DNA of 1,525 nt from Naegleria gruberi (Eukaryota), in NCBI GenBank assembly GCA_000004985.1, contig GG739393.1; one strand, written 5' to 3'. The notes beneath the pieces are model-generated. The model was given only the letters and a program-made list of their open reading frames with translations. It did not search any database and had not been told where the DNA came from. This document shows, piece by piece, positions 1 through 1,525 of this stretch. Made by a program: the position numbers and the translations under genes. Numbering within the stretch: position 1 is the stretch's first letter; each line of letters starts with the position of its first letter.

Positions 1-40
1 ACACTTTCCTTAAACGTGGAATATAAAACACTTCCACCAT
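1..40 (-). CDS. Possible 5' end of a further minus-strand ORF running off the window (MVEVFYIPRLRKV...)
   Basis: Seen in sequence: ATG at 40..38 (minus), preceded by an in-frame TGA at 58..56, and open for 13 codons to the window edge. There is no SD (the upstream sequence is 'tttcttaaagATG'). Too short to judge coding potential; listed only because it sits 70 nt downstream of the small ORF in the same orientation. Confidence 0.2.
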   Translation of the reverse strand, partial: MVEVFYIPRLRKV

Positions 41-109
41 CTTTAAGAAATTGATTCAAGTAATTGGAAAGGAAACATAACTACATTCTCCCCTATTGGA
101 ATCTCTTGA

Positions 110-298
110 TCAAATCTCACATAATCGATTACCCAATGTATTCTTAATCAAAGAACTAATTCTCTGAAGAAATGCATAGACAACTACCAATGATTCATCA
201 TAGCGTTGTTTAATTAAGAATCTTCCTCCTTCAAATGTTATCTGCAATCGATTAATGTATCTATTGAAAACTTTATCCAAATCAGAGGCATATTTCAA
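110..298 (-). CDS. Small ORF (62 aa) with a degenerate DUF4116-like repeat signature; a genuine mini-gene, or a pseudogene / frameshifted C-terminal remnant of a DUF4116 paralog
   Basis: Seen in sequence: a 62-codon ORF from TTG (298..296) to TGA (112..110). Its only canonical start is TTG, with no ATG or GTG and no SD; the nearest purine-rich run, AAGGTGGA, lies about 45 nt upstream. Its product begins 'LKYASDLDKVF' and contains 'YDESLVVVYAF', matching 'SLKYASERL' and 'DDESLVSIAV' of one repeat unit in the large protein. The matches are encoded with different synonymous codons: TTG AAA TAT GCC TCT versus TTA AAG TAT GCA TCT, and GAT GAA TCA TTG GTA versus GAT GAA AGT CTC GTT. The same frame is open upstream of the TTG as far as a TGA at 424..422, giving 104 stop-free codons in 32% GC DNA and overlapping the 3' end of the large CDS by 46 nt. 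The codon bias looks coding-like. Confidence 0.35.
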   Translation of the reverse strand: MKYASDLDKVFNRYINRLQITFEGGRFLIKQRYDESLVVVYAFLQRISSLIKNTLGNRLCEI

Positions 299-375
299 TG
301 TTGTTTCGTCAATAATCTTATCGATATCGTATATCCACCTTTGTACAGGTAAGAAAAATAGAAATTCTTCAAAAC

Positions 376-1497
376 TTACATATATGTATACTTTCCAATT
401 TGTCCTCCTTTTTGGATGAGTTCAATATCTGCTTTGGATTGGTTGTCTTTACTATAAACATAATCATAGATTAGAAGTCTCATTACAGATTTGGAAATAG
501 AAGTAGATCCGTATTTTTCCAGCTCTGAGCTCTCTTTCTTAGCCTTATATAGAATAGTCCAATATAAATCTCTGCATTTAAAGTTGTGAGTTAATGGAGT
601 ATGAGGTAGGAGACTTTTTACGGGCAATTTTTCAACAATTTCTTCAATCCTACCGTCTCTAACATATTGATAGAGTTGAAATAGAAATTGAACATCCTCT
701 CTAAGTTGTTCGGTCTCTAGGACGTAATTTAAAATCTGTTTGTTCTCATAAAGTTTGTTAATTTTTACACAGTCCAAAATTAGTTCAGTATCCAATTTTT
801 TAAACGAGTAGAGGATGGCCAATCCAAAAGTTTTGGTAGCTGTCAAGATAATATTTGAATCACTTTGTAGGGAATTTGATGCAAATTTCAAAAGTTCACC
901 TTTTTTCTCAATGAGTGGAGTGATAAGATTCTTTCCATACTTGAATTTTTCAGAGGCGAATTGAATGGAAAGTGGATTTTGAGCAATCGCCATCTGAACT
1001 ATTTGTAAATCCTCTTTGAAAATACCTGGAACTATTTCAAGAAGCAATCCGTTCCTTTCTACATATTCCAATATCTTCATTTTGTCGTTTTTCAATTCTC
1101 TAGAAGCATATTCGAAAGAATAATAGTTTTGAGAAACTGCAAGATCAACTATTGTAGGATTATTCCTCAATCTTTCAGATGCATACTTTAAAGATAGTCC
1201 TCTCGATTTTACAGCAATAGAAACGAGACTTTCATCATCCTGAAAGGAGTTTGGAAGAAATTCCAAAGCATATCCATTAAATTCGAGCAACTCCTTCATT
1301 GTTTCAATGCTTACAGTATTCCAATCTGTAAATTTTTGGAGAAGCATTACATTTCTTTCTGTCAATTCTTTTACAGACATATTTTCCTTCATTTCCAAGT
1401 TTAAATAAGAAAATTCCTGTTTCATCAAGAAATTAATAAACACCTGCAGTGCTGGGCAATCAGTTTTGATTCGAATAAAGTGTTCTAAATAATCCAT
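376..1497 (-). CDS. DUF4116-like (YAS-motif) repeat protein, function unknown; the 5' end may extend beyond the window
   Basis: Seen in sequence: a 373-codon ORF from ATG (1497..1495) to TAA (378..376), with first-position purine / third-position A/T codon bias typical of coding sequence in AT-rich genomes. The translation contains about seven tandem degenerate units, for example 'DDESLVSIAVKSRGLSLKYASERLRNN', 'PTIVDLAVSQNYYSFEYASRELKNDKMKI', 'LQIVQMAIAQNPLSIQFASEKFKYGKNL' and 'ITPLIEKKGELLKFASNSLQSDSNI', sharing the pattern hV..AV.QN..L.YAS..L..D. Established knowledge (from memory, not searched): this matches the Pfam DUF4116 / PF13475 'conserved YAS motif' repeat. Caveat: the same frame has no stop between 1498 and 1525 (it reads ...VTKNNIIHG-MDYLEH...), so the start may lie upstream of the window. 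No SD-like motif is present in the 28 nt upstream of 1497. Confidence 0.85.
   Translation of the reverse strand: MDYLEHFIRIKTDCPALQVFINFLMKQEFSYLNLEMKENMSVKELTERNVMLLQKFTDWNTVSIETMKELLEFNGYALEFLPNSFQDDESLVSIAVKSRGLSLKYASERLRNNPTIVDLAVSQNYYSFEYASRELKNDKMKILEYVERNGLLLEIVPGIFKEDLQIVQMAIAQNPLSIQFASEKFKYGKNLITPLIEKKGELLKFASNSLQSDSNIILTATKTFGLAILYSFKKLDTELILDCVKINKLYENKQILNYVLETEQLREDVQFLFQLYQYVRDGRIEEIVEKLPVKSLLPHTPLTHNFKCRDLYWTILYKAKKESSELEKYGSTSISKSVMRLLIYDYVYSKDNQSKADIELIQKGGQIGKYTYM
793..1296 (-). other. Block of about seven protein-level YAS-motif (DUF4116-like) repeats within the large CDS (aa 68 to 235 approximately)
   Basis: The periodic recurrence of YAS/FAS preceded by 'AV/AI.QN' and followed by 'L..D' is visible in the ORF translation. 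At the DNA level the units are degenerate, for example 'gcatattcgaaagaata' versus 'gcatactttaaagatag' on the plus strand. The boundaries are approximate. Confidence 0.6.
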
Positions 1498-1509
1498 GCC
1501 ATGGATTAT
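1489..1509. promoter_or_regulatory. Perfect inverted repeat ATAATCCATG-c-CATGGATTAT (10-bp arms, 1-nt spacer) centred on the annotated start codon of the large CDS
   Basis: Seen in sequence: plus 1489..1498 'ataatccatg' is the exact reverse complement of 1500..1509 'catggattat', and the arms stop matching at 1488/1510. On the minus-strand transcript it would form an 8-9 bp stem with a 3-5 nt loop containing the AUG (1497..1495). It could be an operator for a dimeric DNA-binding protein, an mRNA hairpin occluding the start, or (if the CDS really starts further upstream) just a palindrome inside coding sequence. Confidence 0.35.
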
Positions 1510-1525
1510 GTTATTTTTCGTAACC

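What the first reader, a model, noticed from the sequence alone, without database searches (positions are those of the whole stretch)
110..424. Small ORF downstream of the DUF4116 gene is a diverged YAS-repeat unit, possibly a fission or frameshift product or gene remnant
The 62-aa ORF shares two exact pentapeptides (LKYAS, DESLV) with the large protein, and both fall in the conserved parts of the YAS repeat. At the DNA level these matches differ only at synonymous third positions, which argues for protein-level descent and conservation rather than a recent DNA repeat or chance. Two 5/5 matches between a segment of about 100 aa and a 373-aa protein are expected by chance well under once in a hundred. 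The frame stays open 123 nt upstream of its TTG start, up to a TGA at 424..422. It overlaps the last 15 codons of the large CDS, and an A5 run on the coding strand (plus-strand T5 at 409..413) lies in the overlap. This geometry is what a +1/-1 frameshift would leave behind, whether from slippage at the A-run, a real mutation or a sequencing error, after splitting a once longer repeat protein. Alternatives are an independently translated single-repeat mini-protein or a decayed paralog fragment. The spacing between the LKYAS and DESLV motifs (28 aa) does not fit the canonical unit length of about 25 aa, so this copy is degenerate.
Basis: partly seen in the sequence, partly recalled or inferred. 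Interest (0 to 1): 0.5.

Follow-up and report, generated by a model that had tools for sequence, protein, structure and literature searches.

The report
Missed exon behind a 41-base intron
The "small ORF" is not a separate gene or a repeat remnant; it is very probably the start of the next exon of the same Naegleria gruberi gene, reached by removing a 41-base intron whose first bases contain the apparent stop codon, so this is an ordinary gene-model error.

Summary
The window appears to be a whole 1525-bp scaffold of the eukaryote Naegleria gruberi. Bacterial ORF rules such as a TTG start do not apply.

**Intron.** The TAA that ends the 373-aa DUF4116 ORF (378..376) lies inside the only GTAAGT on that strand (379..374). 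Removing a 41-nt GT-AG intron (379..339) joins the large ORF in frame to the small-ORF frame.

**Intact copy.** A 98.75%-identical metagenome contig (L001) has the same intron. Its frame then stays open 347 codons into a protein-kinase domain, and the first ATG comes only after 189 codons. A second intron of 43 nt in L001 rebuilds the HRDLKxxN kinase motif. That shows such short introns occur in this gene.

**The ORF's own stop.** The TGA at 112..110 exists only because the window has an extra T at 140, and another at 83, relative to L001. Both lie near the scaffold end.

- The A5 run is identical in both assemblies, so the proposed frameshift there is refuted.
- Pfam, a custom 57-repeat profile, Smith-Waterman and hhalign find no DUF4116 unit in the ORF.
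- The exact pentapeptides are real and statistically odd, and remain unexplained.

No RNA evidence was available. The result is an annotation correction of low interest.

The parts
380..1525 (-). Exon 1 fragment, open at the scaffold end. It encodes ...VTKNNIIHG-MDYLEHF...GKYTY plus the first two bases (AT) of a split Met codon. The ATG at 1497 is internal, not the true start.
   Evidence: ORF. The frame is open to 1525 and matches the N. gruberi protein P0014 (953 aa), which has about 640 more N-terminal residues. P0001 is 100% identical.
808..1305 (-). DUF4116 (PF13475) repeat array, aa 65-230 of the ORF.
   Evidence: Pfam E = 6.6e-40. The custom profile finds 5 stretches at aa 65-230.
339..379 (-). 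Proposed intron 1: 41 nt, phase 2, GTAAGTTTTGAAGAATTTCTATTTTTCTTACCTGTACAAAG.
   Evidence: It gives the longest product of 148 GT-AG combinations, 448 aa. It is identical in L001 at 1162..1202. A CTTAC branch-point-like motif lies at 353..349 (read).
374..379 (-). GTAAGT splice donor. The apparent stop codon TAA (378..376) lies inside it.
   Evidence: It is the only GTAAGT or GTATGT on this strand of the window. N. fowleri control introns use GTAAGT or GTATGT donors.
141..338 (-). Exon 2, intact part. G338 completes the Met codon, followed by WIYDIDKIIDETTLKYASDLDKVFNRYINRLQITFEGGRFLIKQRYDESLVVVYAFLQRISSLIK. TTG 298..296 is an internal Leu codon.
   Evidence: Spliced translation. Codon-usage log-likelihood is +14.1 bits in this frame and negative in the other five. 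P0012/L001 is 92-99% identical.
140..140 (-). Extra T relative to the intact copy (frameshift 1). It creates the reading NTLGNRLCEI and then the stop.
   Evidence: Alignment with L001, with neighbouring mismatches at 138 and 136.
110..112 (-). TGA stop of the small ORF, a consequence of the extra base at 140 and not a genuine gene end.
   Evidence: L001 reads through here as ...SSLIKKKWVIDYVRFDQEIPIGEN....
84..139 (-). Exon 2 continued, now shifted into the frame of the large ORF (HWVIDYVRFDQEIPIGEN).
   Evidence: Six-frame translation compared with P0012.
83..83 (-). Second extra T relative to the intact copy (frameshift 2).
   Evidence: Alignment with L001.
1..82 (-). Exon 2 continued in the third frame (LCFLSNYLNQFLKDGGSVLYSTFKES), running off the scaffold end.
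   Evidence: L001 continues into a kinase domain.

Best explanation
The window is a small scaffold of the nuclear genome of the amoeboflagellate Naegleria gruberi. It holds an internal piece of one large multi-exon gene. The product has a long N-terminal region, then DUF4116 repeats, then a linker of about 320 aa, then a Ser/Thr protein-kinase domain.

The large ORF does not end at TAA 378..376. That TAA lies inside a GTAAGT splice donor. The spliceosome is inferred to remove 41 nt (379..339). This joins AT (381..380) to G338 as a Met codon and continues in the frame of the small ORF.

The region 110..338 is therefore the first part of exon 2 and encodes the start of the linker. The TTG at 298..296 is an ordinary internal leucine codon.

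The small ORF ends at 112..110 only because this scaffold has one extra T at 140, and another at 83, relative to an intact near-identical copy. These are most likely base-calling errors at the low-quality end of a tiny scaffold (my estimate about 65%). Otherwise they are real lesions in a decaying allele (about 35%).

**Shown:** sequence signals, frame restoration, the intact homologous locus, the kinase domain, and the second short intron.

**Inferred:** that splicing actually happens, since no RNA data were available, and the cause of the two extra bases.
For: 1. **Eukaryotic origin.** P0001, 'predicted protein [Naegleria gruberi]', is 100% identical and its longest contig is 1525 bp, the window's own length.
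2. **Donor on the stop.** GTAAGT occurs once on the coding strand and sits exactly on the stop codon. Given a TAA, the chance of a G before it and GT after it is about 0.01.
3. **Best intron candidate.** Of 148 GT-AG pairs, 379..339 gives the longest product (448 aa). It has the best donor and a pyrimidine-rich tract before the AG.
4. **Intact copy.** L001 is 98.75% identical over all 1525 nt and has the identical intron. Its exon-2 frame is then open for 347 codons, with the first ATG only after 189 codons. The chance of 189 open codons from base composition is about 1e-7.
5. **Spliced product.** The spliced L001 product (907 aa, still open at the contig end) has DUF4116 at E = 4.9e-38. It also has one uninterrupted Pkinase match at aa 552-809, E = 4.8e-34.
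6. **Second short intron.** A 43-nt intron in L001 (2123..2165, GTATGT...AAAG) rebuilds HRDLKLAN. This serves as an internal positive control for very short introns in this gene.
7. **Codon usage.** Trained on other parts of the gene, the score is +14.1 bits in the small-ORF frame and negative in the other five frames.
8. **Donor consensus in the genus.** N. fowleri introns reconstructed from annotated product lengths use GTAAGT or GTATGT donors.
9. **Published intron sizes.** N. gruberi has 1.7 exons per gene, and a minimum intron length of 30 bp was used when mapping N. fowleri RNA-seq (PMC8296547).
10. **Location of the extra bases.** They lie 140 and 83 nt from the scaffold end, where 10 of 19 differences from L001 cluster (Fisher P = 6e-5).
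Against: - No transcript or protein spanning the junction was found. An exact search for the spliced junction in metagenome contigs gave nothing. No database protein reads across it.
- 41 nt is far below the reported mean intron length of N. gruberi, 203 bp. It is also shorter than the N. fowleri control introns, 98-580 nt.
- The JGI gene model P0001 ends at the TAA, with no intron.
- The linker has no homologues other than this gene's own copies. Conservation of the intron position across species therefore could not be tested.
- The intron shows 0 differences between the two copies, which is uninformative at 1.2% divergence.
Confidence: 0.85

Rival explanations
1. Two separate genes. The DUF4116 gene truly ends at TAA 378..376. 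An independent kinase gene starts at the first downstream ATG, beyond the window (MRYIQM... in L001). On this reading 110..338 is intergenic or 5'-UTR sequence.
For: The JGI model P0001 ends at this TAA. An ATG lies about 30 codons before the kinase glycine loop in L001. No RNA evidence for splicing was found.
Against: There are 189 stop-free codons before that ATG in 32% GC DNA (P about 1e-7). Codon usage is gene-like only in that frame. A consensus donor sits exactly on the stop and a matching acceptor restores the frame.
Confidence: 0.07
2. A frameshift between the two ORFs at the A5 run (409..413). The cause would be a sequencing error, a real mutation or programmed -1 ribosomal slippage, splitting a once continuous ORF.
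For: Both frames are open across 376..421 and an A5 run lies in the overlap.
Against: An independent Illumina-type assembly (L001) has the identical sequence across 339..396 and the same A5 run. The only difference in the overlap is a substitution at 397, so there is no homopolymer miscall. CAA AAA GGA is not an X XXY YYZ slippery heptamer (read). The GT-AG solution needs no error at all.
Confidence: 0.03
3. The small ORF, or the linker it belongs to, is a decayed DUF4116 repeat unit. This is compatible with the exon reading. It concerns the evolutionary origin of the linker, not the gene structure.
For: LKYAS and DESLV are exact (P about 0.0025). In the full spliced L001 protein, five 5-mers are shared between aa 51-107 and aa 387-545: LKYAS, DESLV, SLVSI, and MLLQK/LLQKF. 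Only 1 of 20,000 shuffles reached five or more, and three real-sequence controls gave 0. hhalign places TLKYAS on the Al..as positions of the profile.
Against: There is no Pfam hit at E <= 10. The custom 57-repeat profile gives 0.7-1.3 bits and 4% of shuffles reach that. Smith-Waterman z is -0.15 to 0.9, and hhalign probability is 1.4% over 10 columns. The shared peptides are not collinear, and their spacing does not fit the 24-25-aa period.
Confidence: 0.25
4. The window copy is a genuine pseudogene allele or paralogue. On this reading the two 1-nt insertions are real and the small ORF is a remnant of a dying exon.
For: There are two frameshifts plus clustered substitutions in 1..210. Three near-identical copies differ at codon 232 (F, S, T), so several alleles or copies exist. 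The nonsynonymous:synonymous ratio between window and L001 in exon 1 is 6:3, consistent with weak constraint.
Against: The lesions lie within 140 nt of the end of a 1.5-kb scaffold, where read quality is typically poor. The rest of the scaffold is 99.3% identical and open. The counts are too small for a dN/dS test.
Confidence: 0.35

Closest known systems
Short U2-type (GT-AG) spliceosomal introns of protists, with an in-frame stop in the donor (GTAAGT read as G|TAA|GT)
   Same: It has a consensus GTAAGT donor, a pyrimidine-rich tract, a yUnAy-like CTTAC 11 nt before the AG, and a terminal AG. Removal restores the frame. If the intron is retained, translation stops at once, which is why a bacterial-style ORF finder and the JGI model both end there.
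   Different: At 41 nt it is about five times shorter than the published N. gruberi mean of 203 bp (PMC8296547). Splicing has not been observed in RNA.
DUF4116 (PF13475) repeat proteins
   Same: Exon 1 carries 4-5 clear DUF4116 units. The family has no solved structure and has been modelled as an alpha-solenoid (PMC8078820).
   Different: The small ORF itself does not match the family profile. Here the repeats are fused to a protein-kinase domain, which none of the other DUF4116 homologues returned had.
Repeat-domain plus protein-kinase fusion proteins such as ankyrin-, LRR- or HEAT-repeat kinases (from general knowledge; HEAT-plus-kinase examples appear among the hits)
   Same: The architecture is an N-terminal helical repeat array, a linker, and a C-terminal eukaryotic-type kinase with a GxGxxG loop, VxK, HRDLKxxN and APE.
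   Different: The repeat type is DUF4116, and the kinase has DFD in place of DFG. No function was tested.
Split or truncated gene models on small unplaced scaffolds of draft eukaryotic assemblies
   Same: The same gene appears as P0001 (334 aa, this scaffold) and as P0014 (953 aa, 236-kb scaffold). Both are truncated relative to the 907+ aa product reconstructed from L001.
   Different: Nothing unusual.

Membership tests
DUF4116 (PF13475) repeat unit, claimed for the small ORF | Match to the Pfam profile at or near the gathering score (24.9 bits) | tested here: not met
   There is no PF13475 hit at E <= 10 for 110..298, for 110..421, or for the 315-aa linker. The large ORF scores 134.9 bits.
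DUF4116 (PF13475) repeat unit, claimed for the small ORF | Match to a family profile with all speed filters off | tested here: not met
   A custom profile of 57 units gives 1.3 bits for aa 374-448, and 41 of 1000 shuffles reach that. The positive control scores 180.8 bits. hhalign probability is 1.4%.
DUF4116 (PF13475) repeat unit, claimed for the small ORF | Core motif a-L-k-y-A-s and D-x-e-x-V at a period of 24-25 aa | tested here: inconclusive
   LKYAS and DESLV are present, but their starts are 33 aa apart (28 aa between the motifs). That fits neither 10 nor 35 aa. There is an excess of shared 5-mers, but they are not collinear.
DUF4116 (PF13475) repeat unit, claimed for the small ORF | Alpha-solenoid helical-hairpin structure | tested here: inconclusive
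   Single-sequence AlphaFold2 of the spliced product gave mean pLDDT 40.1, which is unusable.
U2-type GT-AG spliceosomal intron (379..339) | 5' GT within a donor consensus | tested here: met
   GTAAGT at 379..374 is unique on the strand. Reconstructed N. fowleri introns use the same donor types.
U2-type GT-AG spliceosomal intron (379..339) | 3' AG preceded by a pyrimidine-rich tract and a branch-point-like yUnAy | tested here: met
   The sequence TTTCTATTTTTCTTACCTGTACAAAG has CTTAC at 353..349, 11 nt before the AG. This is sequence-level evidence only.
U2-type GT-AG spliceosomal intron (379..339) | Removal yields one continuous, homology-supported reading frame | tested here: met
   The product is 448 aa in the window and 907+ aa in L001, with DUF4116 plus Pkinase.
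U2-type GT-AG spliceosomal intron (379..339) | Length within the organism's range | tested here: inconclusive
   41 nt compares with a mean of 203 bp, and a 30-bp minimum was used for N. fowleri mapping. A 43-nt intron in the same gene is validated by the HRD motif.
U2-type GT-AG spliceosomal intron (379..339) | Spliced RNA observed | not testable with these tools
   No junction sequence was found in metagenome contigs and no junction-spanning protein in the databases. No RNA-seq reads were accessible.
Frameshift at a homopolymer or programmed -1 frameshift site (409..413) | Run-length difference between independent sequences, or an X XXY YYZ slippery heptamer | tested here: not met
   The A5 run is identical in L001. 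The codons CAA AAA GGA do not form a slippery heptamer.
Eukaryotic protein kinase (PF00069), for the whole gene product | Pkinase profile match with catalytic motifs | tested here: met
   In L001 only, outside the window: 118.4 bits against a cut-off of 31.7. GKGAQG, VLK, HRDLKLAN, DFD and APE are present.

The most novel reading that the evidence does not exclude
The linker between the DUF4116 array and the kinase may be built from decayed DUF4116 units. Their only surviving traces would be the exact core peptides LKYAS, DESLV, SLVSI and MLLQKF. The gene would also belong to a population of ultra-short (41-43 nt) Naegleria introns that gene finders miss. If so, many N. gruberi 'predicted proteins' ending in ...G|TAA|GT would be truncated models. 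The DUF4116-kinase fusion would give the first functional context, signalling, for this domain of unknown function.
Probability: 0.2. Interest if true: 0.3.

Novelty: new member of a known kind. Interest (0 to 1): 0.15.

Why it matters
The main consequence is a correction.

- The public N. gruberi models for this gene, P0001 (334 aa) and P0014 (953 aa), are truncated. The real product is probably a protein of more than 1,500 aa that joins DUF4116 repeats to a protein kinase.
- Scanning eukaryotic DNA with bacterial ORF rules produces gene-plus-small-overlapping-ORF patterns wherever a phase-2 GTAAGT intron is present.
- The DUF4116-kinase fusion gives a small functional hint for an uncharacterised repeat family.
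- Introns of 41-43 nt may be systematically missed in Naegleria annotation.

Tried and rejected
- **Exact look-ups.** Looking up both window proteins in the assembly collection found nothing on record. P0014 could not be located either, so the main-scaffold copy was not read.
- **Full-library HMMER search with the 103-aa frame.** Two of its three hits, P0011 (3390 aa, 18 stretches) and P0013 (1213 aa, 8 stretches), are long repetitive proteins. Their scores add up many weak matches to ...YCSDLKRVF... type repeats. I rejected them as artefacts.
- **BLASTP of the small frame against the large protein.** E = 10.
- **Spliced-junction search.** An exact search for the spliced junction in metagenome contigs gave 0 hits.
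- **Related-loci search.** Searching with the exon-2 protein gave 71 pattern matches, none confirmed. No other species could be compared.
- **Third homologue search.** A query centred on the junction returned only P0012 and P0001.
- **Rfam.** At E <= 1 on both strands there was no match.
- **PDB sequence search with the linker.** Nothing meaningful, E = 0.9.
- **AlphaFold2.** A single-sequence prediction of the spliced window product gave pLDDT 40 and was unusable, so no fold search was run.
- **Literature.** No paper holds both 'Naegleria' and 'GTAAGT'. Two hmmsearch calls failed on an option clash and were rerun.
- **Alternative splice sites.** The acceptor at 317 (63-nt intron) keeps the old frame and hits a stop within 7 codons, by my reading. 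The donor at 391 (GTATAC, 53 nt) also restores the frame but has a poor donor.
Full report
**1. What the window is**

The 373-aa ORF at 376..1497 (-) is a DUF4116 repeat protein (Pfam E = 6.6e-40). Its only near-identical database relative is P0001, 'predicted protein [Naegleria gruberi]'. P0001 is 334 aa, 100% identical, and sits on a contig of 1525 bp, exactly the window's length.

I therefore take the window to be a complete small scaffold of the nuclear genome of a eukaryote (32% GC). This changes the rules. TTG starts and bacterial ORF logic do not apply, and introns are expected. N. gruberi has 1.7 exons per gene (PMC8296547).

**2. The observation**

- the 62-aa TTG ORF at 110..298;
- the frame open up to the TGA at 424..422;
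- the 46-nt overlap with the large ORF;
- the T5 run at 409..413;
- the two exact pentapeptides, LKYAS and DESLV.

Shuffling the 103-aa frame gives two or more shared 5-mers in 50 of 20,000 trials, so P is about 0.0025.

One detail is wrong. DESLV is encoded by GATGAAAGTCTCGTT in one copy and GATGAATCATTGGTA in the other. Ser is AGT versus TCA and Leu is CTC versus TTG. The differences are synonymous but not confined to third positions.

**3. The join between the two ORFs is an intron**

On the coding strand the end of the large ORF reads ...AAG TAT ACA TAT AT|GTAAGTTTTGAAGAATTTCTATTTTTCTTACCTGTACAAAG|G TGG ATA TAC GAT....

- The stop codon TAA (378..376) lies inside GTAAGT (379..374). This is the only GTAAGT or GTATGT on that strand. 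Given a TAA, the chance of a G before it and GT after it is about 1%.
- I enumerated all 148 GT-AG pairs around the junction. The pair 379..339 (41 nt) gives the longest product, 448 aa. It has the best donor and a pyrimidine-rich tract before the AG.
- Splicing makes AT+G a Met codon and continues with WIYDIDKIIDETTLKYASDL..., which is exactly the small-ORF frame.
- A CTTAC branch-point-like motif sits 11 nt before the AG.

**4. An intact copy shows where the frame leads**

A full-library HMMER search with the 103-aa frame found P0012 (306 aa, 92% identical). P0012 starts at the same TTG codon and runs on into a kinase-like sequence. Its 'M' is an artefact of bacterial gene calling on that contig.

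Its contig L001 (ENA metagenome, 2849 bp) is 98.75% identical to the whole window, with 17 mismatches and 2 one-base gaps. In L001:
- The 41-nt intron is identical.
- The exon-2 frame then stays open for 347 codons.
- The first ATG comes only after 189 codons. The chance of 189 stop-free codons at this base composition is about 1e-7.

That stretch must therefore be coding, and it has no start of its own. It needs the upstream exon.

A second short intron in L001 (2123..2165, 43 nt, GTATGT...TGTAAAG) splits the kinase catalytic loop. Removing it rebuilds ...FTHR|DLKLANVII, the HRDLKxxN motif.

The doubly spliced product is 907 aa and still open at the contig end. It has DUF4116 at E = 4.9e-38 and a single uninterrupted Pkinase match over aa 552-809 at E = 4.8e-34.

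Intron 2 is thus an internal positive control: introns of about 40 nt with GTAWGT donors and ...AAAG acceptors exist in this very gene.

Codon usage, learned from parts of the gene outside 113..337, scores +14.1 bits in the small-ORF frame and is negative in all five other frames.

Two N. fowleri genes whose introns I reconstructed from annotated product lengths use GTAAGT or GTATGT donors. Those introns are longer, at 98-580 nt.

**5. Why the small ORF stops at 112..110**

Relative to L001 the window has an extra T at 140 and another at 83, each with neighbouring substitutions. After the first extra base, the homologous coding sequence continues in the large ORF's frame (HWVIDYVRFDQEIPIGEN). 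After the second, it continues in the third frame (FLSNYLNQFLKDGGSVLYSTFKES) to window position 1. Deleting both bases restores one frame that matches L001.

Ten of the 19 differences lie in the last 210 nt of the scaffold (Fisher P = 6e-5). I judge read-end sequencing error more likely than a truly decayed allele, but traces are needed to decide.

**6.

The A5 run and the whole 339..396 stretch are identical in L001, which is an independent assembly. There is no X XXY YYZ slippery heptamer. A frameshift at 409..413 is not needed and not supported.

**7. Is the ORF a diverged DUF4116 unit?**

Profile and alignment tests say no:
- No PF13475 hit at E <= 10 for the ORF, for the extended frame, or for the 315-aa linker.
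- A profile I built from 57 units of the homologues, run with filters off, scores 0.7-1.3 bits. About 4% of shuffles match that, and the positive control scores 180.8 bits.
- Smith-Waterman against the repeat region gives z = -0.15 to 0.9. hhalign gives 1.4% probability over 10 columns around TLKYAS.

One oddity remains. In the full spliced L001 protein, five 5-mers are shared between aa 51-107 and aa 387-545: LKYAS, DESLV, SLVSI and MLLQK/LLQKF. Only 1 of 20,000 shuffles reached five or more. Three real-sequence controls gave none.

The shared peptides are not collinear and do not keep the 24-25-aa period. They may be relics of decayed units, or chance. I leave this unexplained.

**8. The wider gene**

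- The window's ORF is open to position 1525.
- P0014, a 953-aa N. gruberi model on a 236-kb scaffold, is the same gene with about 640 further N-terminal residues.
- P0014 ends ...HNFKCR+KHQI*. KHQI* is encoded out of frame inside the kinase region, at L001 1874. That model seems to jump about 900 nt, possibly across a gap.
- No annotated N. gruberi protein covers the linker or the kinase.

**9. Limits**

- No RNA evidence could be obtained.
- No orthologue from another species covers the linker.
- The structure prediction was unusable.
- 41 nt is far below the species mean intron length of 203 bp.

**10. Verdict**

The finding is real as an observation. Its explanation is ordinary: an unannotated short spliceosomal intron, followed by the next exon of a DUF4116-kinase gene. 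That exon is cut short in this scaffold by a one-base insertion near the scaffold end. My confidence in the exon-intron reading is 0.85, and interest is low.

Noticed in passing
window 1498..1525 (-): The large ORF is open to the scaffold end (VTKNNIIHG before MDYLEHF). The N. gruberi model P0014 (953 aa) carries about 640 more N-terminal residues, so the ATG at 1497 is not the true start. P0001 starts later still, at M40.
   Followed up: yes
L001 2123..2165: A second very short intron (43 nt, GTATGT...TGTAAAG) splits the kinase HRD motif. Removing it rebuilds HRDLKLAN. Both introns end in AAAG and are 41-43 nt, about five times shorter than the reported N. gruberi mean.
   Followed up: yes
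spliced L001 protein aa 51-107 versus aa 387-545 (window part: 296..282 and 197..183): Five exact 5-mers are shared: LKYAS, DESLV, SLVSI and MLLQK/LLQKF. Only 1 of 20,000 shuffles reached five or more. They are not collinear and have no alignment-level support. This remains unexplained.
   Followed up: partly
P0014 C-terminus; L001 1874..1888: The JGI model P0014 ends ...HNFKCR+KHQI*. KHQI* is encoded out of frame inside the kinase region about 900 nt downstream, with no GT-AG at the implied borders. The model probably bridges a gap or mis-assembly in the 236-kb scaffold.
   Followed up: partly
window 1..210: The density of differences from L001 is 7 times higher here (10 of 19 differences, Fisher P = 6e-5). 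Both 1-nt insertions are in this stretch, which suggests poor read quality at the scaffold end.
   Followed up: partly
window 802..804 (codon 232): Three near-identical copies carry three different residues here: F in the window, S in L001 and T in P0014. This points to several alleles or copies of this gene.
   Followed up: no
L001, kinase domain (spliced aa about 698-700): The kinase has DFD (LIDFDNS) where DFG is usual. The other catalytic motifs (GxGxxG, VxK, HRDLKxxN, APE) are present.
   Followed up: no
L001 (ENA ERZ929261, run ERR1078381, PRJEB11402): A contig 98.75% identical to N. gruberi NEG-M sits in a metagenome assembly. It was gene-called with bacterial rules, giving three 'genes' that are really exons of one gene.
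   Followed up: no
one search hits P0011, P0013: Long repetitive proteins reached E = 5e-40 and 1.5e-18 against a 103-aa query by summing 18 and 8 weak repeat matches. This is a reminder that whole-sequence E-values mislead for repeat proteins.
   Followed up: yes
window 255..419 (+): A 54-aa ATG ORF lies antisense to exon 2 and the intron. Codon usage in all antisense frames is negative, so it is probably spurious.
   Followed up: partly
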